NCBI GenBank assembly: GCA_046331155.1
Contig: JAXLRK010000001.1
Span: forward strand, 1,029,335-1,093,334
Direction: 5' to 3'
From: Acidimicrobiia bacterium
GTDB taxonomy: Bacteria; Actinomycetota; Acidimicrobiia; IMCC26256; CAWATG01
Length of the DNA stretch: 64,000 nt
Below, piece by piece: positions 1-59,479 of this stretch. Numbering within the stretch: the stretch's first letter is position 1; each line of letters opens with the position of its first letter. Made by a program: the position numbers and the translations under genes. A model generated the notes under the pieces. It made no database searches. It saw nothing but the letters and a program-made list of their open reading frames with translations, and was not told the DNA's origin.

Positions 1-328
1 CTACGACGCGTACTACGGCCAGGCGCAACGAGTGCGGACGCTCATCATCCGCGATTTCTCGCGCGCCTACGAGCGTTTCGACGTGCTGCTGTCGCCGACG
101 TCGCCGACGACCGCGTTCGAGCTCGGCGCGAAGACCGCCGACCCCCTCGCGATGTACCTCTCCGACGTCTGCACGATCCCGACGAACCTGGCCGGTCATC
201 CCGCGGTGTCGGTGCCGTTCGGCGTCGCGGGCGACGGCCTGCCGATCGGGGTCCAGGTGCTGGCGCCCACGCTCGGGGAGCGAGTGATGTTCCGCGTGGC
301 CCGGGCGATCGAGCTGGGAGCCCAGTGA
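1..328 (+). CDS. gatA: Glu-tRNA(Gln)/Asp-tRNA(Asn) amidotransferase subunit A, C-terminal fragment (gene starts upstream of window)
   Basis: Frame is open from the window edge. Translation [19 protein letters not shown]...[16 protein letters not shown]...[18 protein letters not shown] is the conserved GatA C-terminus, and gatB follows. Confidence 0.9.
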
Positions 329-426
329 GCGAGCGTGGGGAGGCGGGTATCCCGCCGAGCAGCGAGCGTGGCCTGCCGGCCCGGCGCCGCAGGCGCCAGG
401 AGGCAAGACAGGAGGCAATGGCGTGA
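325..426 (+). repeat. Intercistronic repeat element, family A copy 1, with 33-codon mini-ORF ([33 protein letters not shown])
   Basis: GTG 325-327 overlaps the gatA TGA 326-328 (GTGA). The mini-ORF TGA 424-426 overlaps the gatB GTG 423-425 (GTGA). Near-identical copies lie at 24921-25004 (+) and 59390-59479 (-). Hairpins GGCGGG-TAT-CCCGCC and GGCGCC-GCA-GGCGCC are present, and AGGAGG sits at the 3' end. Confidence 0.85.
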
Positions 427-1880
427 CTGACTGGGAGACGGTCATCGGGCTGGAGGTCCACGCCGAGCTCTCGACCGCGACGAAGTTGTTCTGCTCGTGC
501 GCGAACCAGTTCGGCGCCGAGCCGAACACCAACGTGTGCCCGGTGTGCCTCGGGTTGCCGGGCTCGCTGCCGGTACTCAACGAGCAGGTCGTCGAGTACG
601 CGCTGCGGATCGGCGAGGCGTTGCACTTCGACGTGCCGGAGGACTCGATCTTCCACCGGAAGAACTACTTCTACCCCGACATGCCGAAGGACTACCAGGT
701 CAGCCAGTACGACGCTCCGATCTGCGTCGACGGTTGGCTCGACGTCGAGGGCACGCGCATCGGCATCGAGCGCGCCCACATGGAGGAGGACACCGGCAAG
801 ACGCTGCACGTCGGCGGTGGTGGGCGGATCCACGACGCCGAGTATTCGCTCGTCGACTACAACCGGGCCGGCGTCCCGCTCATGGAGATCGTGAGCCGCC
901 CCGAGATCCGCAGCCCCGAGCAGGCCCGCGCGTACGTCGGGGAGCTCCGTTCGGTGCTCGAGGCGATCGGCGTGTCCGACGTGAAGATGGAGGAGGGTTC
1001 GCTGCGCGTCGACGCGAACGTGTCGGTGCGGCCGGCCGGCACCGAACCGCTCGGTACGCGGACCGAGATCAAGAACATGAACTCGCTGCGATCGCTCGGC
1101 CGCGCGCTCGAGTACGAGGTCGAGCGGCAGATCGGCCTGCTCGAGAACGGCGACCGGGTCGTGCAGGAGACGCGGCACTGGAACGAAGACGACGGCCGTA
1201 CCCACGGCATGCGGTCGAAGGAGGAGGCGTTCGACTACCGGTACTTCCCCGAGCCGGATCTCGTCCCGGTCGCCCCGACCGGCGAGATGAAGGAACGGGC
1301 GCGGGCCGCGATCCCCGAGCTCCCCGCGGCCAAGCGGGCGCGCCTGATCGACGAGTGGGGGATCACGGAAACCGACGCGCGGGTGCTCGTGGGGAACCCC
1401 GGGCTGGTCGCGTTCGCCGAGGTAGCGGTAGCCGAGCTGCGCGGCGGCTCGCCGAAAGAAGTCGTGAACTGGTGCACGGGCGACGTGCAGGCGTACCTGA
1501 ACGAGACCGGGCTGTCCGTCGCCGTGCTGCCGCTCGCGCCCGACGGGCTCGCGGAGCTCGTGGGCCTCGTGGCCGACGGCACGTTGTCGCGCAACCTGGC
1601 CAAGGACGTCCTCGCGGAGTGCCTGCGCCGGCCGAAGCGCCCGAAGGACGTGGTCGACGAACGTGGCCTGGCCCAGGTGAGCGACGAAGGCGAGCTCGGC
1701 GCGGTGATCGACGGAATCCTCGCGGCGAACGCGACCGAGGTCGACGAGTACCGCGCCGGCGACGACAAGGTGAAGAAGAAGAAGCGTGGATTCCTCATGG
1801 GCGAAGCGATGAAGGCCACGAGGGGGAAGGGCAACCCGCAACTGCTCAACCGGTTGCTCGACGAACGCCTGGCAACCTGA
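423..1880 (+). CDS. gatB: Asp-tRNA(Asn)/Glu-tRNA(Gln) amidotransferase subunit B
   Basis: 485 aa. N-terminus WETVIGLEVHAEL...CPVCLGLPGSLPVLN and the C-terminal YqeY-like tail are typical of GatB. GTG start is preceded by AGGAGG. Confidence 0.95.
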   Translation: MTDWETVIGLEVHAELSTATKLFCSCANQFGAEPNTNVCPVCLGLPGSLPVLNEQVVEYALRIGEALHFDVPEDSIFHRKNYFYPDMPKDYQVSQYDAPICVDGWLDVEGTRIGIERAHMEEDTGKTLHVGGGGRIHDAEYSLVDYNRAGVPLMEIVSRPEIRSPEQARAYVGELRSVLEAIGVSDVKMEEGSLRVDANVSVRPAGTEPLGTRTEIKNMNSLRSLGRALEYEVERQIGLLENGDRVVQETRHWNEDDGRTHGMRSKEEAFDYRYFPEPDLVPVAPTGEMKERARAAIPELPAAKRARLIDEWGITETDARVLVGNPGLVAFAEVAVAELRGGSPKEVVNWCTGDVQAYLNETGLSVAVLPLAPDGLAELVGLVADGTLSRNLAKDVLAECLRRPKRPKDVVDERGLAQVSDEGELGAVIDGILAANATEVDEYRAGDDKVKKKKRGFLMGEAMKATRGKGNPQLLNRLLDERLAT

Positions 1881-1900: not shown

Positions 1901-2884
1901 CTACGACATCGCCTGCTGCAACAGCCCGCTCTCACCGGTCAGCGCGACCCGGTCGACCAGGCCGCCGTACCGCTCCTGGGCGGCGTCCGCGATGGTGGCG
2001 CGGGTCCCGCGGACGGCGAACGCGTCGATCATGTCTTCGGGTACCAGGCGCACCATCTCGGGCCAGCGCCCTTCCTTGGATAGCCGGTTGAGCTCCGGGT
2101 GGAGCTCTCCCCAGCCCATGACGTCGAGCACCGGCGCGTACGCAGGCGTCGAGCCGTAGAAAGCGATGCGGCTGCGGATGTCGCGCTCGGCGGCCGCGGT
2201 CTCCTCGTCGGTGTCGCCGATGACGGTCATGGTCGGGAACGCGATCTCGAACCCGTCGCGAGCCCCGCCGGCCGCGGCGTGCCCGCGTTCCAGGGCCGGC
2301 CGGATGTGCTCCCGGAGGTAGCGCTCGGTACAGAACGGGTGCACGAGGAAACCGTCGGCCACCTCGCCGGCCACCTCGGTCATGCGGGGGCCGACACCGG
2401 CGAGCCAGATGCGGGCTCGGCCGTACGGGTTGGGGCCGGGGTCGAAGAACGGGGTCATCAGCGTGTGGCGGTAGAACTCTCCTTCGAACCGCAGCGGGGT
2501 ACCGTCCTGCCAGGCATCCCAGATGGCGCGGATCGCCTGGGTCATCTCGCGCATCCGGGCCGCCGGGTGCGACCAGGGCATCGAGAACCGCCGCTCGATG
2601 TGCGGCCGGATCTGCGAGCCGAGCCCCAACACGAACCGGCCCTTCGAGAGCAGCTGCAGGTCGTAGCCGATGTTGGCCAGCGTCATCGGGTTGCGTGCGA
2701 ACGCGACCGCGATCGCGGTGGCGAGGTCGATCCGCTCGGTGTGCTCGGCCGCCAGCGCGAGCGGGAAGAAGGGGTCGTGCGGGCCCTCGAAGGTGAACAC
2801 GCCGTCGTACCCGGCGTCCTCGACCTCGCGGGCGTTGCGGGCGGCGTCGGGGAGCGCACCGAGCAGCGGGGCGTCGAACTTCAC
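1901..2884 (-). CDS. LLM-class (luciferase-like) F420-dependent oxidoreductase
   Basis: 327 aa with a GTG start. The luciferase-like TIM-barrel pattern ([27 protein letters not shown]) resembles the TIGR03617-type family; this assignment is from memory. Confidence 0.8.
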
Positions 2885-4651: not shown

Positions 4652-5440
4652 ATGCCGGAGATCCTCGAGGTCGAGCTGTCGAGACGGTTGCTCGAGGCGC
4701 ATGCGCTCGGACGCCGGATCACCGCGGTCGACGCTCCCGACGCGTGGTACCTGAAGCGCGGGCTCGACGCGGGCACCGTGCGCGACGCGCTCGTCGGCTC
4801 GCGGTTCGTCGCGGCACGCCGGCGCGGCAAGCTCCTGCTGCTCGACACCGATCGCGGTGGCCCGGTGCTGGGTCTGCACTTCGGGATGACGGGCCGCGTC
4901 TTCGTCGACGACCGTGCCGCGCACGACCGCCTCTACTACCTCGACCGTGAACCCGACCCCGCGTGGGACCGGTTCGTCGTGCAATTCGGTGCCCGCGGCG
5001 AGCTCCGCCTCAGCGACCCGCGCCGCCTGGGCGCGGTCGAGCTGGACCCCGACGAGGACCGCCTGGGCATCGACGCGTTCGCGCTCACGCGGGCGCAGGT
5101 CGCCGCGATCGTCCGTGCCAGTCGTGCGCCGCTCAAGGCCGTCCTCCTGGACCAGGCTCGGGTGGCCGGCCTCGGCAACCTCCTGGTGGACGAGATCCTC
5201 TGGCGGGCCGGAATCGACCCCGCCCGACCGGCCCGATCGCTCGACGACACCGAGACCGCGGCGTTGGCCCGCGCCGTGCGGGAGACGCTGCGGGTGCTCG
5301 GCCGGCGAGGCGGCAGCCACACCGGCGACCTCATGGAGCAACGGGTGCCCGGCGGCGTGTGCCCGCGTGACGGGGCGCCCCTCACCCGACGGACCGTGGG
5401 CGGGCGGACGACCTACTCCTGCCCGGTGCACCAGCGCTGA
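4652..5440 (+). CDS. Fpg/Nei-family DNA glycosylase/AP lyase
   Basis: 262 aa. The N-terminal MPEILEVE is the catalytic Pro2/Glu3 type. An H2TH region (LLDQARVAGLGNLLVDEILW) and a C-terminal zinc finger (C..C...CPVH) are present. The gene starts 3 nt after the ilvD stop. Confidence 0.85.
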   Translation: MPEILEVELSRRLLEAHALGRRITAVDAPDAWYLKRGLDAGTVRDALVGSRFVAARRRGKLLLLDTDRGGPVLGLHFGMTGRVFVDDRAAHDRLYYLDREPDPAWDRFVVQFGARGELRLSDPRRLGAVELDPDEDRLGIDAFALTRAQVAAIVRASRAPLKAVLLDQARVAGLGNLLVDEILWRAGIDPARPARSLDDTETAALARAVRETLRVLGRRGGSHTGDLMEQRVPGGVCPRDGAPLTRRTVGGRTTYSCPVHQR

Positions 5441-5460
5441 CCGTCCGCGGGCCGGCCGGT

Positions 5461-5516
5461 CCCGCGCATCCCGCGCATCCCGCGCATCCCGCGCATCCCG
5501 CTCATCCCGCTCTCAT
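5461..5516. repeat. 9-bp tandem repeat (CCCGCGCAT x4, then CCCGCTCAT, CCCGCTCTCAT)
   Basis: Read directly from the sequence. It lies in the 94-nt gap between the fpg stop (5440) and the first usable start of the next gene (GTG 5535). Confidence 0.95.
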
Positions 5517-11710: not shown

Positions 11711-12916
11711 GTGTCCGTGCCGGCACCGCATCTGCGCGACCCGGTCCGGGGGTCGGTGCTGCTCTCGGCATGGTTCTTCGCGTTGCTCGTCGCGGTGCCG
11801 TGCGCCGTGCTCGTGGGCACCGCGCTCGTCGAGTGGCGCCGCCGTCGGGCGCGCCGCGCCGGCCGTTCGGTCCGGAGCGGGTGGCAGATGGCCGTGGTTC
11901 GCGCCCTGGCGGTCGTCCTCACCCTGGTGTCGGCGTCGGCCGCGGCGCTCGACGGCGTCAACCGGCACTTCGAGTACATCCCGAGCTTCGCGGCGCTGTT
12001 CGGGCAGGTGTCGCGCGACATGGTGCCGGCGTCCGTCGCCCGCCTCGAGTCGCGCGTCGGAGGAGCCGGCCCGGGGAACAGTGTCGCAACACCGTTACCG
12101 ATGCCGCGTCACGGCGCCGTCGAGCAGGTGTCGATCGCGGGATCGGTGAGCGGGGTGGCGGCACGTACGGGATTCGTGTACCTGCCGAAGCAGTACTTCG
12201 ACCCGGCGCGACGCGGCCGCCGGTTCCCGGTGCTGTACCTCCTCCACGGATCTCCCGGTGTCGCCGCGGACTGGCTGCGCGGCGCGTTCGTGGACCAGGC
12301 GATGGACTCGTTGATCGACGCCGGCGCCGTCGCGCCGTTCATCATCGTGATGCCCGACGTCAACGGCGGGTACGCGCGCGACACGGAGTGCCAGGACATC
12401 GTGAGCGGGCCGCAGGTGCAGACGTACCTCGTGCGCGACGTCGTCGACTGGGTCGATGCCCACTACCGGACCGTCACGGACCGCGGGGCACGGGCGATCG
12501 GCGGCCTGTCGACGGGCGGCTACTGCGCGCTGAACCTCGTGCTCCGGCACCAGGACCGGTTCTCGGCGATCGTCTCGCACTCCGGCACCCTCGACCCGAT
12601 CGAGAGCGCGTATTCGGGCCGCTTGTGGGGCGGCAGCCGGAAGCTCCGGGCCGAGAACTCGCCGTCTGTCTACTTGCCCACGATCCCCATCCCGGCGCCG
12701 ATCGGGGTCTACCTCGACGCCGGTGCCGGTGACCGCGATGCCATCCGGGCCGGGCGGCGGGCGCAGGCGTTGTTCAGGCAGCGGGCCGTGCCGGTCACGT
12801 TCAACGTGGTGAGGGGGGAGGGCCACACGTTCGCCGCCTGGCGGGAGAACCTGGCGCTCTCGCTGCCGTGGGTCTCGAACTGGTTCAAGGTCCACGACCC
12901 GGTGGCCGATCAGTGA
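11711..12916 (+). CDS. Membrane-anchored putative esterase (esterase D/PF00756-like alpha/beta hydrolase)
   Basis: 401 aa with N-terminal TM segments. FPVLYLLHGSPGVAADW...IIVMPDVNGGY...GGLSTGGYCAL (GxSxG-like) ...EGHTFAAW. Starts 4 nt after the synthase stop. Confidence 0.85.
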   Translation: MSVPAPHLRDPVRGSVLLSAWFFALLVAVPCAVLVGTALVEWRRRRARRAGRSVRSGWQMAVVRALAVVLTLVSASAAALDGVNRHFEYIPSFAALFGQVSRDMVPASVARLESRVGGAGPGNSVATPLPMPRHGAVEQVSIAGSVSGVAARTGFVYLPKQYFDPARRGRRFPVLYLLHGSPGVAADWLRGAFVDQAMDSLIDAGAVAPFIIVMPDVNGGYARDTECQDIVSGPQVQTYLVRDVVDWVDAHYRTVTDRGARAIGGLSTGGYCALNLVLRHQDRFSAIVSHSGTLDPIESAYSGRLWGGSRKLRAENSPSVYLPTIPIPAPIGVYLDAGAGDRDAIRAGRRAQALFRQRAVPVTFNVVRGEGHTFAAWRENLALSLPWVSNWFKVHDPVADQ

Positions 12917-12983
12917 GACGGGCCCTTGCGGACGCCGGTGGGCGTTTGCATCGGGTTCGCAGATCCACCAGAATGGACGGACC

Positions 12984-13034
12984 ATGAAGACGGCCACCGA
13001 ATCCCTCGGCACCACCATCCTCGTAGTTACCTAG
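12984..13034 (+). promoter_or_regulatory. ilvB leader peptide ORF (MKTATESLGTTILVVT) of a transcription attenuator
   Basis: 16-codon ORF with a consecutive Ile-Leu-Val-Val run. The hairpin AGCGCACGG/CCGTGCGCT (13033-13063) overlaps its stop, and an intrinsic terminator follows before ilvB. Confidence 0.75.
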
Positions 13035-13068
13035 CGCACGGCGCCCCGCCGCGTCCGTGCGCTTCCCG

Positions 13069-13094
13069 CCCCTCGCCGCAGCGAGGGGTTTTTT
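13069..13094 (+). terminator. Intrinsic terminator of the ilvB attenuator
   Basis: Stem CCCCTCGC (13069-13076) / GCGAGGGG (13081-13088), loop CGCA, followed by TTTTTT (13089-13094). It lies 42 nt upstream of the ilvB ATG. Confidence 0.8.
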
Positions 13095-13135
13095 CTGTCC
13101 CGAGATCGGCAGCATCCCCACTGGGAGCGAACACG

Positions 13136-14860
13136 ATGAAACTCACCGGAGCCCAGGCCCTGATCAAGAGCCTCGAGATGGAGGGGACGGAGGTCATGTT
13201 CGGCCTCCCGGGAGGCGCGATCCTCCCGGTCTACGACCCGCTCATCGAGTCCTCGATCCGTCACATCCTCGTGCGCCACGAGCAGGGCGCGGGCCACATG
13301 GCCGAGGGGTACGCCCACGTCACCGGCAGACCCGGCGTCGCCATGGTCACCAGCGGTCCGGCGGCCACGAACATCGTGACCCCGCTGTGCAACGCCTACA
13401 TGGACTCCACCCCGCTCGTCGTCGTCACGGGGCAGGTGCCGTACGCGGTCATCGGGACCGACGCGTTCCAGGAGGCGGACACCGTCGGCATCACCATGCC
13501 GGTCACGAAGCACAACTGGCTCGTGACGGACGCCAACGACATCCCCGACGTGATCCGCGAGGCGTTCCACGTCGCGACGACCGGCCGGCCCGGCCCCGTG
13601 CTCGTCGACGTGCCGAAGGACGTGTCGAACCAGCAGATGGACTGGCACTGGCCCGAGTCCGTGGACCTTCCCGGCTACAAGCCGTACTCGAAGGGGCACC
13701 CGAAGCAGATCAAGGAGGCGGCGCGGCTCGTCAACGAGTCGCAGCGGCCCGTGATCTACGCGGGCGGCGGCATCCTCAAGGCGCGCGCTGCGCAGACGTT
13801 GCGGCAGCTGGCCGAGCTCACGGGCGCGCACGTCGTGACGACGCTGATGGCGCGGGGCGCGTTCCCCGACGACCACCCGCTGTGCCTCGGCATGCCCGGC
13901 ATGCACGGCAACTACACCGCGATCACCGCGATGCAGCAGGCGGACTTGCTCATCACCCTCGGCGCCCGGTTCGACGACCGCGTCACCGGCAAGGTCAGCG
14001 CGTTCGCGCCCGACGCCAAGATCATCCATGCCGACATCGACCCGGCCGAGCTCGGCAAGGTCCGCCGCCCGGACGTGCCGATCGTGGGCGACTGCCGCCT
14101 CGTGATCGAAGAGCTGGTGAAGGCGGTCAGGGTCGAGCAGGGGAAGAAGGCGAAGCCGGACCTGTCCGCGTGGGACGCGCAGATCGACCAGTGGCGGCGC
14201 GACTTCCCGTTGCGATACGAGCAGAGCCAGGACGGCGGGCCGCTCAAGCCGCAGTTCGTCGTCGAGTGCCTGCGCGACAACACGCCCGACGACACGATCG
14301 TCACGGCGGGCGTCGGCCAGCACCAGATGTGGACGAGCCAGTACTGGAAGTTCAACCACCCGTACACGTTCGTGAACTCGGGTGGTCTCGGCACGATGGG
14401 CTTCTCGGTGCCCGCCGCGATCGGCGCCAAGGTCGGCATGCCCGACCGGATGGTCTGGTCGATCGACGGCGACGGCTGCTTCCAGATGACCGCGCAGGAG
14501 CTGGTGACGGCGTCGGCCGAGCGCATCCCGGTGAAGGTCGCCATCCTCAACAACGCGTACCTCGGGATGGTGCGCCAGTGGCAGGAGCTCTTCTACGAGG
14601 AGCGCTACAGCGAGGTGTACCTGTCGCCCGACCTGCCCGACTACGTGAAGTGGGCCGAGGCGATGGGCTGCGTCGGGTTCCGGGTGGAGACGCCCGAAGA
14701 CGTCGTGCCGACGATCGAGAAGGCCAACGAGATCGACGACCGGCCCGTCGTCGTCGACTTCCGGACCGACTACCGGGAGAAGGTGTACCCGATGGTCGCG
14801 GCCGGCACGTCGAACGACGACGTGATCATGGGCCCCGAGTTCGGCGAAGGCGGCCGGTGA
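13136..14860 (+). CDS. ilvB: Acetolactate synthase (acetohydroxy-acid synthase) large subunit
   Basis: MKLTGAQALIKSLE...HEQGAGHMAEGYA...GLGTMGFSVPAAIGAK...IDGDGCFQM, the ThDP-enzyme signature. The ATG is preceded by GGGAG. Confidence 0.95.
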   Translation: MKLTGAQALIKSLEMEGTEVMFGLPGGAILPVYDPLIESSIRHILVRHEQGAGHMAEGYAHVTGRPGVAMVTSGPAATNIVTPLCNAYMDSTPLVVVTGQVPYAVIGTDAFQEADTVGITMPVTKHNWLVTDANDIPDVIREAFHVATTGRPGPVLVDVPKDVSNQQMDWHWPESVDLPGYKPYSKGHPKQIKEAARLVNESQRPVIYAGGGILKARAAQTLRQLAELTGAHVVTTLMARGAFPDDHPLCLGMPGMHGNYTAITAMQQADLLITLGARFDDRVTGKVSAFAPDAKIIHADIDPAELGKVRRPDVPIVGDCRLVIEELVKAVRVEQGKKAKPDLSAWDAQIDQWRRDFPLRYEQSQDGGPLKPQFVVECLRDNTPDDTIVTAGVGQHQMWTSQYWKFNHPYTFVNSGGLGTMGFSVPAAIGAKVGMPDRMVWSIDGDGCFQMTAQELVTASAERIPVKVAILNNAYLGMVRQWQELFYEERYSEVYLSPDLPDYVKWAEAMGCVGFRVETPEDVVPTIEKANEIDDRPVVVDFRTDYREKVYPMVAAGTSNDDVIMGPEFGEGGR

Positions 14861-14994
14861 GACGAAGCGGAGGCCTGGCCGGAGGCCGGGTGGCCGGAGC
14901 GGAGCTCGAACTGAGGAGGGTGAGACGAAGCGGAGGCCTGGCCGGAGGCCGGGTGGCCGGAGCGGAGCTCGAACTGAGGAGGCAAGACCGATGA
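14857..14994 (+). repeat. 63-bp perfect tandem duplication (14857-14919, 14920-14982) plus a 12-nt tail, forming a 45-codon mini-ORF bridging ilvB and ilvN
   Basis: GTG 14857 overlaps the ilvB TGA 14858-14860. The frame stays open through both units ((VRRSGGLAGGRVAGAELELRR)x2 QDR), and its TGA 14992-14994 overlaps the ilvN ATG 14991. The 3' end GAGGAGGCAAGA matches the tail of family A copies. Confidence 0.9.
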
Positions 14995-15527
14995 CCGACG
15001 GATTTTCGCAGCATCACATCTTCGGCGTGCTGGTGGAGAACAAGTTCGGCGTGCTGTCGCGCGTCGCCGGGCTGTTCTCCCGGCGCGGCTTCAACATCTT
15101 CTCGCTGGCGGTCAGCCCGACGGAGGACGAGCGGTTCTCGCGCATGACGATCGTCGTCGACGCCGAGTCCGCGCCGCTCGAGCAGGTCACGAAGCAGCTC
15201 AACAAGCTGATCCCGGTGATCAAGATCGCCGAGGTCGCGCCGGGCGAGGGCATCGAGCGCGAGCTCATGCTCGTGACGGTCAAGGCGACGGCCGAGTTCC
15301 GCTCGCAGGTCACCGAGCTGGCCGCGATCTTCGACGCCAAGATCGTCGACGTGGGCTTCGACGCGCTCACGCTCACCGTGACCGGTCCGCCCGACACGCT
15401 CGACACGCTGCTCGACCTGCTCCGTCCCTACGGCATCGTCGAGTCGCAGCGCACCGGCCGGATCGCGCTGCCGAAGCTCCAGCGCCAGGCCCCGAAGCTC
15501 CGTTCGGTGAAGCCCAAGAGCGCGTAG
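14991..15527 (+). CDS. ilvN: Acetolactate synthase small (regulatory) subunit
   Basis: 178 aa. ACT domain HIFGVLVENKFGVLSRVAGLFSRRGFNI. Confidence 0.95.
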   Translation: MTDGFSQHHIFGVLVENKFGVLSRVAGLFSRRGFNIFSLAVSPTEDERFSRMTIVVDAESAPLEQVTKQLNKLIPVIKIAEVAPGEGIERELMLVTVKATAEFRSQVTELAAIFDAKIVDVGFDALTLTVTGPPDTLDTLLDLLRPYGIVESQRTGRIALPKLQRQAPKLRSVKPKSA

Positions 15528-15530
15528 CCG

Positions 15531-15713
15531 ATGTCGGTCCGGCCGCCGGCGGTGATCGCGTGCGTCGACTGCGGGGGCGAGTGCCACCTGTTGACGAAGC
15601 CGGCCGAGGACGGCTGGGTGGTCGGCGAGATCGTCAGCTACCGCTGCGTCGACTGCCTCGACCGCTGGGACGTCGAACTTTCGGACGACGACCGCGAGGA
15701 AGGCGGTAGATGA
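15531..15713 (+). CDS. Small four-cysteine (CxxC...CxxC) zinc-ribbon-like protein
   Basis: 60 aa with near-saturated GC3. Contains CVDCGGEC and CVDC pairs. ATG lies 3 nt after the ilvN stop. Confidence 0.65.
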   Translation: MSVRPPAVIACVDCGGECHLLTKPAEDGWVVGEIVSYRCVDCLDRWDVELSDDDREEGGR

Positions 15714-16075
15714 GGGTCCCGATCACCTGCAACGCGGAGGTGCGGCTCTTCGGGTGGCTCGCCGGGATGATCGCACCCGCGTGTTGGGTCGAAGTCGACG
15801 GCGACGTGCTGCGGGCCCAGATGGGGCCGGCCTGCCGGGCCGACATCCCGCTCGCCGCCATCGCCTCGGCCCGCCGGCGAGGCTGGCACTGGTGGTACGG
15901 GTACGGCGGCCGGATCTACGGCCGCAAGGGCGTCGGCTTCGTCGGGACAGGACGGGGAGTGGTCGAGCTCGAGCTGTCGAAGCCGGTCACGGTGCGGGTG
16001 CTGTGGCGCAAGTCCTGCACTCGGTTCGCGGTGTCCGTCGAGGACCCCGACGCGTTCGCGACCCTGATCCAGTGA
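15710..16075 (+). CDS. Hypothetical protein
   Basis: 121 aa with high GC3. ATGA overlap with the upstream small gene. No family recognised from memory. Confidence 0.6.
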   Translation: MRVPITCNAEVRLFGWLAGMIAPACWVEVDGDVLRAQMGPACRADIPLAAIASARRRGWHWWYGYGGRIYGRKGVGFVGTGRGVVELELSKPVTVRVLWRKSCTRFAVSVEDPDAFATLIQ

Positions 16076-16097
16076 TCGTAGCAAATCTGCTACGATC
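16074..16097. promoter_or_regulatory. Perfect inverted repeat GATCGTAGCA-AATC-TGCTACGATC, candidate antitoxin operator
   Basis: 10-bp arms with a 4-bp spacer, ending 5 nt before the antitoxin GTG (16103) and overlapping the upstream stop codon. Confidence 0.55.
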
Positions 16098-16102
16098 CGG
16101 CT

Positions 16103-16351
16103 GTGGAACCCCTCCGTGACATCCCCCAACGAGAGCTGCGCAACCACGTGAGCCGCGTGCTGCGCGAGGTCGAGGCGGGCCGGAGCTTTCGGGTCACCGT
16201 CGACGGGAGGCCTGTCGCCGAGCTGCGCCCAGTCTCCTCGCGACGGACGTTCGTCCCGCGCGACGTGATCGAGCGGATCATCCGCGAGGCGCCGCTCGAC
16301 GCCAACTTCATGCGGGACATCGAAGACGCCCTCGATCAGACGATCGACTGA
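16103..16351 (+). CDS. Type II antitoxin, Phd/YefM-like
   Basis: 82 aa. The N-terminus RELRNHVSRVLREVEAGRSFRVTVDGRPVAEL is the Phd/YefM fold signature. It sits directly upstream of a PIN toxin. Confidence 0.85.
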   Translation: MEPLRDIPQRELRNHVSRVLREVEAGRSFRVTVDGRPVAELRPVSSRRTFVPRDVIERIIREAPLDANFMRDIEDALDQTID

Positions 16352-16353
16352 GC

Positions 16354-16743
16354 ATGAGCGAGAGCGGACTCCTCGACACGTCGGTCTTCATCGCCCAGGA
16401 ACAGGGCCGGTCCGTGAGAGCGCTGCCCGAGGACGGCGCCGTTTCAGTGGTCACGCTGGCCGAATTGCAGCTTGGCGTGCTGGCAGCACCCGACGATGAT
16501 GCCCGTGCGGCCCGGCTCCAGACGGTTTCGCGGCTCGAGCACGAGTTCGAGCCGCTTGGCATCGACAGCGAGATTGCCCGTACCTTTGCCGCCCTGGTTC
16601 ACGCGGCTCGGCGATCCGGGCGCCAGCCGAAGGCCATGGGTGCCTGGATAGCGGCAACGGCCGTGACGCTCGGGCTTCCTCTCTACACCCAAGATCGCGA
16701 TTTTCGAGCCTTCGGCGACCGCTTGCGCGTCGTCGAGGTCTGA
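16354..16743 (+). CDS. vapC: Type II toxin, PIN-domain ribonuclease VapC
   Basis: 129 aa. LLDTSVFI (first Asp), TLAEL (Glu), TQDRDF (distal Asp). There is more A/T at codon third positions than in neighbouring genes. Confidence 0.88.
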
Positions 16744-16759
16744 CTCAAGGAGCACCGCG

Positions 16760-17788
16760 ATGCCCGCGACCATCTACTACGACGACGACGCCGACCTCGG
16801 CCTGCTCCAGGGCAAGAAGGTCGCGATCCTCGGCTACGGCTCGCAGGGCCACGCCCACGCGCTGAACCTGCGCGACTCGGGCGTCGACGTGCGCGTCGGC
16901 CTGCGGGAAGGGTCGAAGTCGCGCCAGAAGGCGGAAGAAGCGGGGCTGCCGGTGCTCTCGGTGGCCGACGCCACCGCCGAAGCCGACATCGTGATGGTCC
17001 TCCTGCCCGACACCGAGCAGGCGAGCGTCTACGAGAGCGAGATCGCGAAGAACCTCCAGCCGGGCGACTCGCTCGCGTTCGCCCACGGCTTCAACATCCA
17101 CTTCGAGCAGATCACGCCGCCCGAGGGTGTCGACGTGTGGATGATCGCACCCAAGGGCCCCGGCCACCTCGTGCGCCGTACCTACGAGGAGGGTGGCGGC
17201 GTGCCGGCGCTCGTCGCGGTGGCCGTCGACGCGACCGGCAAGGCGAAGCAGACCGCACTCGCGTACGCCAAGGGCATCGGCTCGACGCGCGGCGGCGTAC
17301 TCGAGACGGACTTCCGCGAGGAGACCGAGACCGACCTGTTCGGCGAGCAGGTCGTGCTCTGCGGCGGGCTCGTCGAGCTGATCAAGAACGGGTTCGAGAC
17401 GTTGGTCGAGGCCGGTTACCAGCCCGAGTCGGCCTACTTCGAGACGCTGCACGAGGTGAAGCTCATCGTCGACCTCATCTACGAGGGCGGCATCTCGAAC
17501 ATGCGCTACTCGATCTCCGACACCGCCGAGTACGGCGACATGACCCGCGGCCCGCGCGTCGTCACGAGCGCGACGAAGACCGAGATGAAGAAGATCCTCG
17601 ACGAGATCCAGTCCGGGAAGTTCGCCGAGGAGTGGATCGCCGAGAACCGGGCCGGGCGGCCGAACTTCAACCGGCTGCGCGAGGAGGGCATGTCCCACCC
17701 GATCGAGCGGGTCGGCGAGAGGCTCCGGTCGATGATGCCGTGGATCTCGGCCGGCAAGAAGAGGCCCCAGGACGTCTCCGGCGGCTGA
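16760..17788 (+). CDS. ilvC: Ketol-acid reductoisomerase
   Basis: 342 aa. [17 protein letters not shown] Rossmann motif. AAGGAG lies upstream of the ATG, and the gap to vapC is only 16 nt. Confidence 0.96.
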
Positions 17789-17801
17789 CGCCTCCCGACA
17801 A

Positions 17802-17849
17802 CAGCTGCGTTCGACGGCAGCTGCGTTCGACAGCAGCTGCGTTCTTTCG
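17802..17849. repeat. 16-bp direct tandem repeat x3 (CAGCTGCGTTCGACGG / CAGCTGCGTTCGACAG / CAGCTGCGTTCTTTCG)
   Basis: Read directly from the sequence. It begins 14 nt after the ilvC stop. The third unit runs into an 11-bp-stem hairpin (17840-17850 / 17880-17890). Confidence 0.9.
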
Positions 17850-19951: not shown

Positions 19952-20305
19952 TCAGCCCGCCGACGCGTCGCCGGCGTCCGCGGCGGTGGCTTCACCGGCG
20001 GTGGCTTCACCGGCGGTGGTGTCGCCCGCGGGGTCACCGGCGGGACCCTCCGACGCCGCGAGCTCGGCGAGCTGGGCCTCGATCACCTGGATCTCGCCGA
20101 CGAGGCGCGCCACCTCGGCGTCGGCGTCCGCGCCCGCGGCACCGGTGCGCTGGGCGTAGACCACGCCGCCGAGCTCCTGCTTCAGCTCGCCGGCCCCCTT
20201 TTCGAGCTTGTGCGCCTCGTACTTGTCCTTGCCGGCCTCACCGACCTGCTGGGCCTTCTCGCCCACCTGCTTCGCGGTGTCCTTGACCTTGTCGAGGAAT
20301 CCCAT
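19952..20305 (-). CDS. Small coiled-coil protein with acidic, repeat-containing C-terminus (hypothetical)
   Basis: 117 aa, MGFLDKVKDTAKQVGEKAQQ..., with high GC3. An in-frame 15-bp tandem repeat (19981-20025) encodes TAGEA units. Confidence 0.7.
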   Translation of the reverse strand: MGFLDKVKDTAKQVGEKAQQVGEAGKDKYEAHKLEKGAGELKQELGGVVYAQRTGAAGADADAEVARLVGEIQVIEAQLAELAASEGPAGDPAGDTTAGEATAGEATAADAGDASAG

Positions 20306-24881: not shown

Positions 24882-24920
24882 GTCGCTGCCTCTTGGGGGC
24901 CGGTCGGTACCATCCGGCGC

Positions 24921-25004
24921 GTGAGTGAGCGTCGGGAGGCGGGTATCCTGCCGAGCAGCGAGCGTGGCCCAGCGGCCCGGCGCCGAAGGCGCCAGGAGCG
25001 GTAG
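24921..25004 (+). repeat. Repeat element, family A copy 2 (27-codon mini-ORF VSERREAGILPSSERGPAARRRRRQER)
   Basis: Aligns end to end with 325-426 and 59390-59479. It lies in the divergent lhr/acyltransferase intergenic region. TAG 25002-25004 ends 2 nt before the acyltransferase GTG 25007, and a GGAG motif lies at its 3' end. Confidence 0.85.
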
Positions 25005-27048: not shown

Positions 27049-27063
27049 ATCAGACGGTCGCCC

Positions 27064-27540
27064 TCACTCGGCCGCAGGGTGCCTGCGACCGCCCTGCGCG
27101 ACGTTCGGGACTCCGTGCTCGCTCGCCTGCGCTCGCTCGCCTGGTCGAGGGGCCTGCGGGAGGCCGTCCAGGATCTGGTCAGTCCAGCTGACGTCGGGTC
27201 GGGGCCGCCGACGCGCCGCGAGCTCGTCGGGAACCTCGATCTCCATGCGAACGAGCGCGCCGCCGAGGGTCTTGCCGAGGTTGTCCGAACGAAGCGACAA
27301 CGGTCCACCGCCGCCGAGCGCGCCGTCCATCACGAAGTTGAGCGCCAGGACGTTTCGTGCCTCGTAGCGCACGACGGCGCCCCGCACCATCGTCGCGAAG
27401 TGCGCCTTGACCCGTTCCGGCGTCACCTCACGGGCGAGCAGGTCGTAGACCTCGTCGTCGTACGCGAACAGCGCGACGTTGGAGATGTCGCCCTTGTCGC
27501 CGGCGCGGTAGGCGCACAGCTCGTGGAGGCGGAGCTTCAC
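27064..27540 (-). CDS. Small partner protein of AtuA-like/DUF1446 enzymes (DUF4387-like, assignment from memory)
   Basis: The GTG overlaps the upstream stop (GTGA at 27537-27540). The conserved core is LCAYRAGDKGDISNVALFAYDDEVYDLL...VRYEARNVLALNFVM. Confidence 0.65.
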   Translation of the reverse strand: MKLRLHELCAYRAGDKGDISNVALFAYDDEVYDLLAREVTPERVKAHFATMVRGAVVRYEARNVLALNFVMDGALGGGGPLSLRSDNLGKTLGGALVRMEIEVPDELAARRRPRPDVSWTDQILDGLPQAPRPGERAQASEHGVPNVAQGGRRHPAAE

Positions 27541-33387: not shown

Positions 33388-33539
33388 GGATGGATGAAAC
33401 GGGCATCAACCGACTCCCGAGACGATGGTCGGCTGGAGCGGCGAGCGGCCCGCAGGGCGGGCGCAGGTACCCTGCGCCCGAGCGAGCGCGACCGGAAGGT
33501 CAGATGCCTCTTTCACGAGACATCGGGCGTAGCGCGTGA
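33384..33539 (+). repeat. Intercistronic element with 51-codon mini-ORF bridging menB and menA (family-A-related architecture)
   Basis: GTG 33384 overlaps the menB TGA 33385-33387. Its TGA 33537-33539 overlaps the menA GTG 33536. It has a 10-bp hairpin CGGGCGCAGG-TAC-CCTGCGCCCG (33458-33480) and a GAGCGAGCG motif shared with family A. Confidence 0.7.
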
Positions 33540-42439: not shown

Positions 42440-42536
42440 CGTGTGCACCTCGCCTGCTCGGTCGACCGCCGGGTGACGCCGGCAATCAGGCGACGCTACC
42501 AATCAGGCCACGCCTGCGATCAGGTGACGGCAGCGA

Positions 42537-48772: not shown

Positions 48773-48824
48773 CGCCCTGGTGACCTGCTGACGCACTGGT
48801 GACCTGCTGACGCGTGGTGTGACC
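48758..48824. repeat. 19-bp tandem repeat x3 plus partial (CTGGTG[G/A]CCTGCTGACGC[C/A/G]) spanning the HPF-like stop codon
   Basis: Units at 48758-48776, 48777-48795 and 48796-48814, plus a partial TGGTGTGACC. The first unit encodes the last residues LVAC plus the TGA. Confidence 0.9.
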
Positions 48825-50050: not shown

Positions 50051-50068
50051 CCGCACCAGGACCACTTC

Positions 50069-50114
50069 AAAAGGTAGCGATCGGTAACGTATTCGTTACC
50101 GATCGCTACCTTTT
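50069..50114. terminator. Bidirectional intrinsic terminator: perfect 21-bp stem, 4-nt loop, A4/T4 flanks
   Basis: AAAAGGTAGCGATCGGTAACG-TATT-CGTTACCGATCGCTACCTTTT lies between the convergent DUF1918 (+) and ribB (-) genes. It is an AT-rich island in a GC-rich background. Confidence 0.85.
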
Positions 50115-50126
50115 GTGAGGCGAGGG

Positions 50127-57115: not shown

Positions 57116-57180
57116 CCCGAAACGGTCGACCCGTCAGGGTACCGGCGCCCGCCCGCTGCCGCCCGTCGCGGGTCGGTCGT

Positions 57181-57218
57181 GGCGTATCTGAGGGGCGCTA
57201 TGCGCCCTCAGATACGCC
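57181..57218. other. 38-nt near-perfect palindrome/hairpin (17 bp, one bulge, TAT loop)
   Basis: GGCGTATCTGAGGGGCGC-TAT-GCGCCCTCAGATACGCC lies in the divergent region between the riboswitch operon (-) and the HDOD gene (+). Confidence 0.8.
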
Positions 57219-57319
57219 ACGGGGTCCGGGGGAGGGCTCAAGTCCGGGCGGAGGGCGCCCGAGAATTCGGGTGTGAAGACCTTGCTGGGCGCTGGGCGCG
57301 CCGTGCCGGAACGCTGCCA

Positions 57320-58190: not shown

Positions 58191-59393
58191 TCAGCGCGTC
58201 GCCCCCAGCGCGGCGAGCGCGGTGCCCACGAGCACACGGATCCCGACGCCGATGGCGCGCTCGTCCACGTCGAACGTGCTCGCGTGGAGGTCGAGCTTGG
58301 GTCCGTCGGACGACGGGTCGTGCACACCGAGCCGCGCGTAGGAGCCGGCGACCGCGTCGAGGTACCACGAGAAGTCGTCGCCGCCTGCGCTCTGCTCGGT
58401 GGGGACCACCTGGTCGCCACCGAGCACGCGGCGGGCGGTGGTCGCGAGCAGCTCCGTTGCGGCCGGGTCGTTCACCACGGGCGGAACGCCGGGCGAGTGG
58501 TGCACTTCCACGGTGGCGCCGAACGGCGTCGCCATCTCCGAGAGCAGCTCCTGGACGAGCGCGGGTGCGACCCGCCAGGTGTCGTGGTCCGGCGCCCGCA
58601 AGGTGCCCCGCAACACCGCCAGCGACGGGATGACGTTGGCGGCGCCGCCTGCGTGGATCGCGCCGAACACGAGGTTGGGCTCGCCGGGCGAGCAACGCTC
58701 GCGCAGTCGGGTCGGGAGCTCCGCGGCGATGCGACCGGCGACGGCGACGAGGTCGGCGGTCCGGTGCGGTCGGGCCGTGTGCCCGCCGGGCCCGTGCAAC
58801 CGAACCTCGAGCAAGTCGGAGGCCGACGTGATGGCCCCGGCGCGCACGCCCAGGTACCCGACGTCGAGCTTCGGATCGCAGTGCAGGCCGAAGATCCAGT
58901 CGACGTCGGCGAGCCCGCCGTCGGCGATGACGTCCACCGCACCGCCGGGCGCAGTCTCCTCGGCGGGCTGGAAGATCAGGCGGATCCGCCCCGACGCGCG
59001 CGAGCCGGCGGGGTCGTCGCCGGCGAGGCGCGCGAGCGCGAGCCCGGCCCCGAGGACGACGGTCGTGTGGACGTCGTGCCCGCAGGCGTGCGCGAGGCCC
59101 GGTACCTGCGACCGGTAGTGGACGGTCTTCTCGTCGTCCATGGCGAGCGCGTCGATGTCGGCGCGCAGAGCGACCGTCGGGCCGTGACCGTCGCCGACGA
59201 CGATGTCGCACAACAGCCCCGTCCCGCTCGCGAGCACGCGAAGGGGCAGCCCGGCGACGTCGAGTCTCGCGGCGACGAGCTCCGTGGTCTCGTGCTCGGC
59301 GCCGCTGCGCTCGGGGTGGGCGTGGAGATGGCGCCGGAACGCGATCAGCTCCTCGCCGTGGGCGTCGAGGAACGTGTCGAGGGGCTTACTCAA
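58191..59393 (-). CDS. M20-family amidohydrolase (N-acyl-L-amino acid amidohydrolase/hippurate hydrolase type)
   Basis: 400 aa from TTG 59393 (AGGAGG lies 6 nt upstream). FRRHLHAHPE, ALRADIDAL, HACGHD and FQPAEE motifs. The track ORF extension to 59561 runs through the repeat element. Confidence 0.88.
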   Translation of the reverse strand: MSKPLDTFLDAHGEELIAFRRHLHAHPERSGAEHETTELVAARLDVAGLPLRVLASGTGLLCDIVVGDGHGPTVALRADIDALAMDDEKTVHYRSQVPGLAHACGHDVHTTVVLGAGLALARLAGDDPAGSRASGRIRLIFQPAEETAPGGAVDVIADGGLADVDWIFGLHCDPKLDVGYLGVRAGAITSASDLLEVRLHGPGGHTARPHRTADLVAVAGRIAAELPTRLRERCSPGEPNLVFGAIHAGGAANVIPSLAVLRGTLRAPDHDTWRVAPALVQELLSEMATPFGATVEVHHSPGVPPVVNDPAATELLATTARRVLGGDQVVPTEQSAGGDDFSWYLDAVAGSYARLGVHDPSSDGPKLDLHASTFDVDERAIGVGIRVLVGTALAALGATR

Positions 59394-59479
59394 CCTCTTG
59401 CCTCCTGGCGCCTGCGGCGCCGGGCCGGCAGGCCACGCTCGCTGCTCGGCGGGATACCCGCCTCCCGACGCTCGCTCAT
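59390..59479 (-). repeat. Intercistronic repeat element, family A copy 3 (29-codon mini-ORF MSERREAGIPPSSERGLPARRRRRQEARG)
   Basis: On the minus strand, ATG 59479-59477 overlaps the GCS2 TGA 59478-59476 (ATGA). Its TGA 59392-59390 overlaps the amidohydrolase TTG 59393-59391 (TTGA). It is nearly identical to 325-426. Confidence 0.85.

What the first reader, a model, noticed from the sequence alone, without database searches (positions are those of the whole stretch)
14857..14994. Perfect 63-bp tandem duplication between ilvB and ilvN forms an in-frame bridging ORF (VNTR-like)
Two identical 63-bp units (21 codons each) plus a 12-nt tail fill the ilvB-ilvN gap. The GTG at 14857 overlaps the ilvB TGA. 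The frame stays open through both units ((VRRSGGLAGGRVAGAELELRR)x2 QDR), and its TGA overlaps the ilvN ATG (ATGA). Each unit begins with GTGA and ends with GAGGAGG, so any integer copy number would keep both the overlaps and a Shine-Dalgarno in place. The tail GAGGAGGCAAGA is the same 3' module seen in family A copies 1 and 3, which links the two repeat families. The units are perfectly identical, which implies a recent duplication or ongoing homogenisation, so this is a candidate copy-number-variable locus.
Basis: seen in the sequence. Interest (0 to 1): 0.7.

Follow-up and report, generated by a model that had tools for sequence, protein, structure and literature searches.

The report
MIRU-like coupled repeat between ilvB and ilvN
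The perfect 2 x 63-bp repeat between the two acetolactate-synthase genes is real; it belongs to a family of short hairpin-bearing repeats in soil Acidimicrobiia that sit at gene junctions and are built like the mycobacterial MIRU repeats used for TB typing, though they show no detectable sequence similarity to them.

Summary
There are two identical 63-bp units at 14857-14919 and 14920-14982. A GTG overlaps the ilvB TGA, one open frame runs through both units, and its TGA overlaps the ilvN ATG.

In 11 related assemblies, ilvB and ilvN overlap or lie at most 3 nt apart, so the array sits in a normally coupled junction.

The same 63-bp element occupies this junction in three independent assemblies of sister lineages. 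At least two units are present wherever copy number can be judged. Homologous 61-65-nt elements occur elsewhere in relatives:
- one copy at ilvB/ilvN in another MAG
- one copy between ilvN and ilvC
- a 4.9 x 61-nt array downstream of fpg

A central hairpin is kept by compensatory changes. Units are more alike within a genome (100%, 95%) than between genomes (about 89%), which indicates array turnover.

The bridging ORF is not ordinary coding sequence. Its GC3 is 0.70 against 0.97, it uses rare codons, and a distant homologue is read in a different frame.

The architecture matches a real M. tuberculosis senX3-regX3 MIRU array fetched here, but profiles detect no sequence similarity.

Verdict: a MIRU-like intercistronic repeat that is compatible with translational coupling, and a new variant of a known kind. 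Copy-number variation between strains is not yet shown.

The parts
13136..14860 (+). ilvB, the acetolactate synthase large subunit. Its TGA (14858-14860) is overlapped by the GTG of the repeat.
   Evidence: ORF list. Pfam TPP_enzyme_N/M/C, E 1e-38 to 4e-53. GC3 0.97.
14857..14919 (+). B unit 1 (63 nt). It starts with GTGA and ends with GAGGAGG.
14920..14982 (+). B unit 2 (63 nt), identical to unit 1. Its last six bases, AGGAGG (14977-14982), lie 8 nt upstream of the ilvN ATG and serve as its Shine-Dalgarno.
14872..14895 (+). Central hairpin of unit 1 (GGCCT GGCC GGA GGCC GGG TGGCC). The same hairpin lies at 14935-14958 in unit 2.
   Evidence: Covariation count on alignment A1: 97.8% of cells paired, 4 of 9 pairs with changes on both sides, and none in the slid controls. 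MFE folds agree.
14935..14958 (+). Central hairpin of unit 2.
   Evidence: Identical to the unit 1 hairpin.
14983..14990 (+). Unduplicated 8-nt tail, CAAGACCG. It acts as the spacer between the SD and the ilvN ATG. It may be ancestral ilvN 5' sequence rather than part of the element.
   Evidence: The tail is ACAGCC or ACAGTC in sister lineages. Compared by eye with the L202 empty site.
14857..14994 (+). Bridging reading frame of 45 codons. Its GTG overlaps the ilvB stop and its TGA overlaps the ilvN start. It is probably translated only as a coupling device.
   Evidence: GC3 0.70 with 8 of 21 codons per unit rare. No Pfam match.
14991..15527 (+). ilvN, the acetolactate synthase small subunit.
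   Evidence: Pfam ACT_AHAS_ss and ALS_ss_C. Identical protein in an NCBI Acidimicrobiia MAG with a 2.63-Mb contig.
325..426 (+). Family A copy 1, between gatA (TGA 326-328) and gatB (GTG 423). It carries a 33-codon ORF bounded by GTGA at both ends.
24919..25004 (+). Family A copy 2 (91% identical to copy 1). It lies in the divergent spacer between lhr (minus strand) and an acyltransferase gene (GTG 25007). Its 3' end is degenerate: the ORF ends in TAG 2 nt before the start codon.
59390..59479 (-). Family A copy 3, between a GCS2 ligase gene and an M20 peptidase gene. It carries a 29-codon ORF bounded by ATGA and TTGA.

Best explanation
The array consists of two copies of a short, non-autonomous, hairpin-bearing repeat element (family B). 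The element lies exactly in the normally overlapping ilvB stop / ilvN start junction of an Acidimicrobiia genome. It is tolerated, and has persisted, because its layout keeps ilvN translation coupled to ilvB.

Proposed mechanism (inferred, not measured):
1. A ribosome terminating at the ilvB TGA can restart at the overlapping GTG.
2. It reads 44 codons through both units. The 63-nt unit, being 3 x 21, keeps the frame for any copy number, and translation melts the two hairpins.
3. It terminates at a TGA that overlaps the ilvN ATG.
4. The end of the last unit also supplies an AGGAGG 8 nt upstream of that ATG. This replaces the SD that in relatives lies inside the last ilvB codons.

The peptide itself is not the selected product. 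Copy number changes by slippage or unequal exchange between units, and this also keeps the units homogeneous.

Shown: the anatomy, the empty and filled sites, family membership, hairpin covariation and concerted evolution.
Inferred: actual translation and coupling, the way the element spreads, and the slippage mechanism.
For: 1. Empty sites. In 8 GTDB relatives the gap between the ilvB stop and the ilvN start is -1 to +3 nt, with GGAGG inside the ilvB 3' end. L202 and L203 have a gap of 0, and in L207 the genes overlap by 10 nt. The window has a gap of 130 nt.
2. Same element, same site, in independent assemblies. L204 (JGI 3300060671) shows at least 2 units of 63 nt, and a called ORF whose TGA overlaps the ilvN GTG. 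L205 and L206 start inside the unit. Logan contig L205 starts exactly at the 31-mer that ends on the first position where the two L204 units differ. L001 starts at window 14953, the first 31-mer unique to the last unit. Both starts imply at least 2 units in those read sets.
3. Homologues at other sites. L006 has one unit at ilvB/ilvN with its own ATGA...ATGA ORF. L004 has one unit between ilvN and ilvC. L052 has 4.9 x 61 nt downstream of fpg. nhmmer E-values run from 4e-15 to 8e-8 and CM E-values from 3e-16 to 7e-12.
4. The hairpin is conserved through compensatory changes.
5. Concerted evolution of the units.
6. Not ordinary coding sequence. GC3 is 0.70 against 0.97, with rare codons. In L006 the homologous nucleotides are read in a different frame (one search compared).
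7. The neighbouring family A shows the same design. Of 31 complete canonical copies, 21 carry a 28-33-codon ORF bounded by NTGA...NTGA, and there are tandem arrays of 86-91 nt.
8. A real M. tuberculosis MIRU array has the same layout, as described in the literature (PMC3184786; PMC12548453).
Against: - No expression, ribosome-profiling or reporter data exist, so coupling is inferred from geometry only.
- Five of the six frames of the unit are open, so the open frame could be partly a by-product of GC-rich composition.
- The relatives L004 and L052 carry B-like units that are not arranged as coupled ORFs. The coupling layout is therefore not universal in the family.
- The conserved hairpin suggests selection on structure, which a purely passive element would not need, unless the hairpin serves mobilisation.
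- No transposase or mobilisation mechanism was identified.
- Thermodynamic z-scores of the window unit are unremarkable, at -1.6.
Confidence: 0.72

Rival explanations
1. The units are a selected cis-regulatory RNA. The conserved hairpins in the ilvBN mRNA would set the IlvB:IlvN ratio or the transcript's stability or processing, as REP/BIME sequences do in some enterobacterial operons. The open frame would be incidental.
For: The hairpin is maintained by compensatory substitutions across subfamilies. The element has been retained at this junction across lineages whose IlvN is about 88-89% identical. Intercistronic REP elements are known to affect differential expression (reference listed in PMC3184786).
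Against: The same hairpin family occurs at unrelated junctions and in different copy numbers. It is absent from most relatives, including L202, which by IlvN identity nests among the filled lineages. There is no Rfam match and no terminator-like or promoter-like signal. Folding z-scores are weak for the window and L204 units.
Confidence: 0.17
2. The bridging ORF is a genuine small-protein gene encoding a 44-residue repeat peptide.
For: The frame is open and has a start codon. In the sister lineage L204 the same frame is kept, giving MTRSAGLAGGREAGAELELRRQP.
Against: GC3 is 0.70 against 0.97 in ilvB, ilvN and ilvC. Eight of the 21 codons per unit are codons used at most 7 times in 1,094. There is no Pfam match. 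In L006 the homologous element is read in another frame and gives an unrelated peptide. Five of the six frames are open anyway. Of the differences between the window and L204 units, 3 are non-synonymous and 2 synonymous.
Confidence: 0.04
3. The duplication is an assembly or polishing artefact, and only one unit exists in the real genome.
For: Perfectly identical tandem copies are a classic product of mis-assembly. No reads were available here.
Against: The source contig is 2.63 Mb long, which suggests a long-read-scale assembly. Logan unitig L001 breaks exactly where two different continuations of ...GAGGAGG are required, although L001 may come from the same sample. An independent JGI contig (L204) shows two consecutive units with 3 differences between them, and a further contig with the identical IlvN has a 136-nt gap.
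Confidence: 0.04

Closest known systems
Mycobacterial interspersed repetitive units (MIRUs; Supply et al. 1997), e.g. the senX3-regX3 array of M. tuberculosis
   Same: Both are 40-100-bp units in intercistronic regions, oriented like the flanking genes and often tandem. Each holds an ORF whose start overlaps the upstream stop and whose stop overlaps the next start, and an SD sits in the last unit. This was checked on real sequence. In L208 the senX3 TGA is overlapped by an ATG (ATGA). There are 3.1 x 77-bp units, each with a 25-codon ORF ending TGATG, and GGAGGAGGAG lies before the regX3 ATG. Literature: PMC3184786; PMC12548453.
   Different: There is no detectable sequence similarity: the family A and B HMMs and CM R1 give nothing significant on the MIRU array. 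The host is an Acidimicrobiia MAG, not Mycobacterium. The 63-nt unit is a multiple of three, so the whole array is one read-through ORF rather than one ORF per unit. The element has a central hairpin flanked by AGCGGAG direct repeats. Strain-level copy-number polymorphism, the hallmark use of MIRU-VNTR, is not demonstrated here.
REP / BIME elements of Enterobacteriaceae and Pseudomonas
   Same: Both are short, GC-rich, hairpin-forming repeats dispersed in intergenic regions of operons. They sometimes occur in clusters and can lie between cistrons.
   Different: REPs are about 35-bp imperfect palindromes. They usually lie downstream of stop codons, are not arranged as translated bridging ORFs, and are linked to RAYT transposases. 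No such arrangement or partner gene was examined or seen here.
MITEs (e.g. Correia/NEMIS, RUP, ERIC)
   Same: Both are small non-autonomous elements with filled and empty sites, flanked by short direct repeats. Here those are CCGGTGA/CCGATGA in the window, ATGAC/ATGAC in L006 and AGGAGAC/AGGAGAC in L004.
   Different: No terminal inverted repeats of at least 8 nt were found in the B unit. Tandem amplification and the start/stop-overlap design are not typical of MITEs.
Rickettsia palindromic elements
   Same: Both are short repeats whose insertion is tolerated because the reading frame is preserved.
   Different: RPEs insert inside protein-coding genes and become part of the protein. Here the element sits between two genes in a frame of its own.

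Membership tests
MIRU (mycobacterial interspersed repetitive units) | Unit of about 40-100 bp | tested here: met
   The unit is 63 bp. Homologues are 61-65 nt.
MIRU (mycobacterial interspersed repetitive units) | Lies between co-oriented genes of an operon, in the same orientation as them | tested here: met
   It lies between ilvB and ilvN on the + strand. Family A copies 1 and 3 lie between gatA/gatB and between GCS2/M20.
MIRU (mycobacterial interspersed repetitive units) | Internal ORF whose start overlaps the upstream stop and whose stop overlaps the downstream start | tested here: met
   GTGA at 14857-14860 and ATGA at 14991-14994. The same holds in L006 and at the 3' end in L204. The layout was verified on a real MIRU array.
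MIRU (mycobacterial interspersed repetitive units) | Tandem arrays whose copy number varies between strains | tested here: inconclusive
   At this junction there are 0 copies in 11 relatives, 1 in L006, 2 in the window, at least 2 in L204 and L205, and a gap of about 2 units in a second contig encoding the same IlvN as L204. These are species-level comparisons. No two strains of one species were compared.
MIRU (mycobacterial interspersed repetitive units) | Dispersed at tens of loci in one genome | not testable with these tools
   Only 64 kb of the 2.63-Mb contig is available, and it holds one B locus. B-like copies at other loci are seen only in other genomes: L004, L052, L116, L157 and L172.
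MIRU (mycobacterial interspersed repetitive units) | Sequence similarity to the mycobacterial MIRU consensus | tested here: not met
   nhmmer with the family A and B profiles, and cmsearch with R1, against the M. tuberculosis senX3-regX3 locus. The best match inside the array has E = 16, and R1 has no hit.
MIRU (mycobacterial interspersed repetitive units) | Host is a Mycobacterium | tested here: not met
   The identical IlvN is named 'MAG... [Acidimicrobiia bacterium]'. The nearest genomes are Acidimicrobiia or uncultured Actinomycetes MAGs.
MITE | Terminal inverted repeats | tested here: not met
   No inverted repeat of at least 8 nt (seed 6) in 14845-14925.
MITE | Target-site duplication flanking the insertion, with empty sites in relatives | tested here: inconclusive
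   Empty sites are clear. The flanking direct repeats are CCGGTGA/CCGATGA (6 of 7 identical), ATGAC/ATGAC in L006 and AGGAGAC/AGGAGAC in L004. They could equally be start-codon or SD motifs recurring by function.
REP/BIME | About 35-bp imperfect palindrome, extragenic and untranslated, associated with a RAYT transposase | not tested
   A hairpin is present, but the unit is 63 nt and lies in a bridging ORF. No search for a RAYT gene was made.
Curated RNA families (Rfam 15) | Match to a covariance model | tested here: not met
   No relevant match at E <= 1 in 12500-17000, nor at E <= 0.1 in 10 loci carrying A or B elements.

The most novel reading that the evidence does not exclude
Families A and B may be parts of one modular, widespread class of mobile intercistronic elements in soil Actinomycetota. 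Such elements would target translation start/stop junctions (NTGA or SD-proximal sites) and carry their own coupling ORF and SD. They would be recognised through conserved hairpins by an as-yet-unidentified mobilising enzyme. This would be an independent, far larger counterpart of the mycobacterial MIRUs. With hundreds of insertion sites, it would make the unresolved question of how MIRU-type elements move and why they are tolerated directly testable.
Probability: 0.4. Interest if true: 0.7.

Novelty: new variant of a known kind. Interest (0 to 1): 0.5.

Why it matters
MIRUs have been described as essentially restricted to mycobacteria (one paper says M. leprae and the M. tuberculosis complex only: PMC4213456), and how they spread is unknown. 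Here a repeat family with no detectable sequence similarity to MIRUs, in a different actinobacterial class, shows the same solution: insert at a gene junction and preserve translational coupling through a throw-away ORF plus an SD.

This suggests the design is a general way for small repeats to colonise operons. It also offers many filled and empty sites for studying the targeting, turnover and expression effects of such elements.

Practically, these units break short-read assemblies at operon junctions and cause gene callers to add false N-terminal extensions or small ORFs.

Tried and rejected
- Rfam scans of the locus and of 10 element-bearing loci gave nothing relevant.
- An exact 24-mer of unit B had 0 hits in JGI metagenome contigs.
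- An exact look-up of the IlvB protein found no record. The look-up of IlvN returned only a 1.9-kb Logan contig.
- Full-text searches for the family A core motif and for 'MIRU-like' repeats in other Actinobacteria found no description.
- The promoter/terminator scan of 14500-15300 found none. An internal promoter or terminator role is therefore not supported, although the scan covers only sigma-70-type consensus.
- The terminal inverted repeat search found none, so a MITE is not supported.
- Folding energy of the array or of a single unit against shuffles gave z about -1.6, which is not significant on its own. The structure argument rests on covariation instead.
- CM R1 searched over about 1.44 Mb of held loci found no further B copies beyond the seeds and L204-L206.
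- The family A HMM searched on about 150 kb of the closest relatives' loci gave no hits.
- Homology to true MIRUs was rejected.
- I considered that the tail shared with family A proves a common 3' module. I downgraded this, because the tail differs in the sister lineage and by eye resembles ancestral ilvN codons.
- Whether the empty site in L202 is a precise loss or whether the filled sites are independent gains is left unresolved. By IlvN identity, L202 nests between the window and L204-L206.
Full report
**1. The observation**

The window holds two identical 63-bp units at 14857-14919 and 14920-14982. TRF gives period 63, 2.0 copies, 100% matches and score 254. An exact search finds the two copies and none in 100 shuffles. 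ilvB (13136-14860) ends CGG TGA, and the G of CGG plus TG forms a GTG at 14857 (GTGA). The frame from that GTG reads (VRRSGGLAGGRVAGAELELRR)x2 QDR and stops at TGA 14992-14994, which overlaps the ilvN ATG at 14991. Pfam confirms both genes.

Two caveats apply. The bridging frame is open from 13057, as one of the long spurious ORFs of this GC-rich DNA. Five of the six frames of the unit lack stops. The open frame alone therefore says little; the precise overlaps matter.

**2. Where the window comes from**

The identical IlvN is on record as 'acetolactate synthase small subunit [Acidimicrobiia bacterium]', from an NCBI MAG whose longest contig is 2.63 Mb. The nearest species representatives are Acidimicrobiia or uncultured Actinomycetes MAGs, with 74-76% IlvN identity, or 87% in the best segment of L052.

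**3. The junction in relatives: empty sites**

In eight GTDB relatives the ilvB stop and ilvN start are -1 to +3 nt apart, and a GGAGG lies inside the last ilvB codons. Two closer metagenomic relatives are also empty. L202 and L203 (IlvN 90%, 20 kb syntenic with the window) read ...GGGGGAGATAGATGGAC, a gap of 0. In L207 (86%) the genes overlap by 10 nt. The usual state is thus a tightly coupled junction, and the 130-nt spacer of the window is an insertion into it.

**4. The same element at the same site in independent data**

- L204 (JGI 3300060671, IlvN 92%) begins inside the repeat. It shows one nearly complete and one complete 63-nt unit, then ACAGCC and the ilvN GTG. The gene caller placed an ORF at 1..132 whose TGA overlaps that GTG.
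- A second contig with the identical IlvN (JGI 3300067032, no DNA available) has a 136-nt gap, about two units.
- L206 (JGI 3300067036) and the Logan contig L205 (ERR4998638) start inside the last unit.
- L205 starts exactly at the 31-mer whose last base is the first position at which the two L204 units differ.
- The Logan contig L001 is 100% identical to window 14953-16807. It starts at the first 31-mer unique to unit 2 plus the tail.

Both Logan starts are what a k = 31 graph (assumed for Logan; not stated by any tool output here) gives when at least two units are present. An assembly artefact confined to the window is therefore unlikely. L001 may, however, derive from the same sample as the MAG.

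**5. Turnover**

In alignment A2 the window units are identical to each other. The L204 units differ at 3 of 60 positions. Window and L204 units differ at 7 of 63 positions, and at 5 of these both units of each genome share the same state. The unit boundaries are the same in both lineages. This is the signature of concerted evolution, meaning repeated contraction and expansion or conversion, or of re-duplication.

Strain-level copy-number variation is not shown, because both countable lineages have about two units. By IlvN identity the empty-site lineage P0005/L202 is closer to L204-L206 (92-93%) than the window is (88-89%). So either the array was lost precisely in that lineage or it was gained twice. 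A single 178-aa protein cannot decide this.

**6. A family, not a one-off**

A profile built from the unit finds homologues in three relatives (nhmmer E 4e-15 to 8e-8; CM R1 E 3e-16 to 7e-12).

- L006, another Acidimicrobiia MAG, has one unit at the same ilvB/ilvN junction: TGAcATGAcgtcg...gcgaccATGAcaacg. It has its own 20-codon ORF (MTSNAVEPCSESGTAERRRP), whose TGA overlaps the ilvN ATG, and ATGAC on both sides.
- L004 has one unit between the ilvN stop and the ilvC GTG, flanked by AGGAGAC on both sides.
- L052 has 4.9 x 61 nt at 99% identity, between an fpg/nei-type glycosylase gene and a response-regulator gene. The orthologous place in the window has no such array.
- Looser B-like modules (5' GAGACGA..., 3' GGAGTCGACC) occur in soil metagenome contigs. 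One lies next to a family A core (L172). Another is nested in a family A element while keeping its frame, giving an ORF of 48 = 29 + 19 codons (L157).

**7. Structure**

All B units share a central hairpin of two stems (5 + 4 bp), a GGA(G) loop and a 3' GGG bulge. On alignment A1, 97.8% of cells pair, and 4 of 9 pairs show changes on both sides; for example GCTC/GAGC, GCCC/GGGC and GGCC/GGCC. Sliding the partners by 1-3 columns gives no such pairs and 33-58% pairing.

Single-sequence folds recover the hairpin, but z-scores are modest, from -0.4 to -2.75. The hairpin is flanked by an AGCGGAG direct repeat. There is no Rfam match, no terminator-like or sigma-70-like site, and no terminal inverted repeat.

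**8. The ORF is a device, not a gene**

GC3 is 0.97 in ilvB, ilvN and ilvC but 0.70 in the bridging frame. Eight of the 21 codons per unit (AGA, CGA, GGA x3, GAA, AGG x2) are each used at most 7 times in 1,094 codons. There is no Pfam match. In L006 the homologous nucleotides are read one position out of register and give an unrelated peptide (one search compared).

What is conserved is the geometry: NTGA at the upstream stop, no stop in the frame, and NTGA at the downstream start. In addition, an AGGAGG sits 8 nt before the ilvN ATG, about the spacing that the SD inside ilvB has in the empty-site relatives.

**9. Family A in the same window**

Three copies exist: 325-426 between gatA and gatB, 24919-25004, and 59390-59479 on the minus strand between a GCS2 ligase gene and an M20 peptidase gene. 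Copies 1 and 3 carry ORFs of 33 and 29 codons, bounded by GTGA...GTGA and ATGA...TTGA.

Of 31 complete copies that begin NTGA, 21 have a 28-33-codon ORF ending in [A/G/T]TGA. There are tandem arrays with periods of 55-56 and 86-91 nt. In L101, 3 x 86 nt, each unit has its own 29-codon ORF overlapping the next ATGA. The family has three hairpins, and position 9 covaries with position 39 (GC 6, AU 5, GU 3).

The 11-mer AGGAGGCAAGA is shared by A copies 1 and 3 and by the B tail: 3 matches against 0.5 expected. However, the tail is ACAGCC in L204, and by eye it resembles ilvN codons 2-4 of L202. The proposed 'shared 3' module' is therefore uncertain. The adjacency and nesting of A-like and B-like modules in metagenome contigs is better evidence that the families are related parts of one modular system.

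**10. Comparison with the known kind**

Reviews describe MIRUs as 40-100-bp units at about 40-50 intergenic sites. They are transcribed within operons, have tetranucleotide direct repeats at filled sites, and carry ORFs whose ends overlap the adjacent genes (PMC3184786). They appear to 'insert themselves at start codons' so that a MIRU ORF is coupled to the gene with a -4 spacing (PMC12548453).

To test this on sequence, I retrieved the M. tuberculosis senX3-regX3 region (RegX3 query; locus L208 = CP012506.2 577509-581279). The senX3 TGA is overlapped by an ATG. There are 3.1 units of 77 bp, each with a 25-codon ORF whose TGA overlaps the next ATG (TGATG), and GGAGGAGGAG precedes the regX3 ATG.

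The architecture is the same as here. Sequence similarity is not: the family A and B profiles and CM R1 give nothing significant on the MIRU array, and the host is a different class. So the element works like a MIRU but is not a member of the MIRU sequence family. One difference in design is that the 63-nt unit makes the whole array one read-through ORF, instead of one ORF per unit.

**11. Verdict**

The finding is real, and its structural description is right. The best explanation (confidence about 0.7) is a MIRU-like intercistronic repeat whose layout preserves ilvB-ilvN translational coupling, with tandem turnover of its units.

A selected RNA-structure role for the hairpin is the main rival (about 0.17). 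A micropeptide gene and an assembly artefact are each unlikely (about 0.04). Coupling, mobility and strain-level variability remain inferences, and the tests are listed under next steps.

Noticed in passing
window 325-426 (+), 24919-25004 (+), 59390-59479 (-); metagenome loci L082-L201: Family A is an 86-90-nt three-hairpin repeat with the core AGGCGGGTATCCCGCCGAGC. Of 31 complete canonical copies, 21 carry a 28-33-codon ORF bounded by NTGA...NTGA. There are tandem arrays with periods of 55-56 and 86-91 nt. Alignment positions 9 and 39 covary. No Rfam family or paper describes it.
   Followed up: partly
L157 about 2262-2410 (+); L172 about 1000-1110 (-); L116 about 700-770 (+): B-like modules (5' GAGACGA..., 3' GGAGTCGACC) occur adjacent to or nested within family A elements. 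In L157 a 57-nt module sits inside an A element and the NTGA-bounded ORF stays open (48 = 29 + 19 codons).
   Followed up: partly
window 27055-27107 (-) and 33442-33494 (+): A third small repeat (family C) has two copies 85% identical in inverted orientation, rich in GCGAGCGAGC motifs. It has a hairpin CGCAGGGCGG.CGCAGG.ACCCTGCG. Both copies appear intergenic.
   Followed up: no
window 50068-50115 (also 50702-50727 and 57178-57221): A 48-nt near-perfect palindrome (96%), AAAAGGTAGCGATCGGTAACG/CGTTACCGATCGCTACCTTTT, is strikingly AT-rich for this genome. Two shorter palindromes lie nearby. It may be an operator or a bidirectional terminator.
   Followed up: no
window 5460-5510; L052 1399-1696: A 9-nt tandem repeat (TCCCGCGCA x 5.7) starts 20 nt after the stop of the fpg/nei-type glycosylase gene (4652-5440). 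In relative L052 the orthologous gene is followed by the 4.9 x 61-nt B-like array. A paper title links the M. tuberculosis fpg homologue to variable tandem repeats (PMC2734929; only the title and the start of the abstract, as listed, were seen).
   Followed up: partly
window 15531-16743: The ilvN-ilvC spacer is 1.2 kb long. It holds two small ORFs (60 and 121 aa) plus a PhdYeFM-like antitoxin / PIN (VapC-like) toxin pair. The syntenic relative L202 has three small ORFs there but no called PIN-domain gene. A toxin-antitoxin module therefore sits inside the ilvBNC cluster.
   Followed up: no
L208 (M. tuberculosis CP012506.2) and proteins P0121-P0126; L204 1-132: Database RegX3 entries of 245-347 aa, against the true 227 aa, show that gene callers extend the N-terminus through MIRUs. 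Likewise the bridging ORF of L204 was called as a gene. Such elements systematically distort annotation.
   Followed up: no
L002 5940-6050: In MAG MFD04944.bin.2.123 both the ilvB 3' end (…RPRARPSGRA*) and the ilvN 5' end (MATSEMSGHAPHPHGA) read as frame-shifted relative to their close relatives. These are probably indel errors of the assembly.
   Followed up: no
window 17796-17844, 19981-20019, 42475-42541, 48753-48813: Further short tandem repeats were found: 16 nt x 3.1, 15 nt x 2.6 (100% identical), 17 nt x 3.9 and 19 nt x 3.2. They were not examined for position relative to genes.
   Followed up: no
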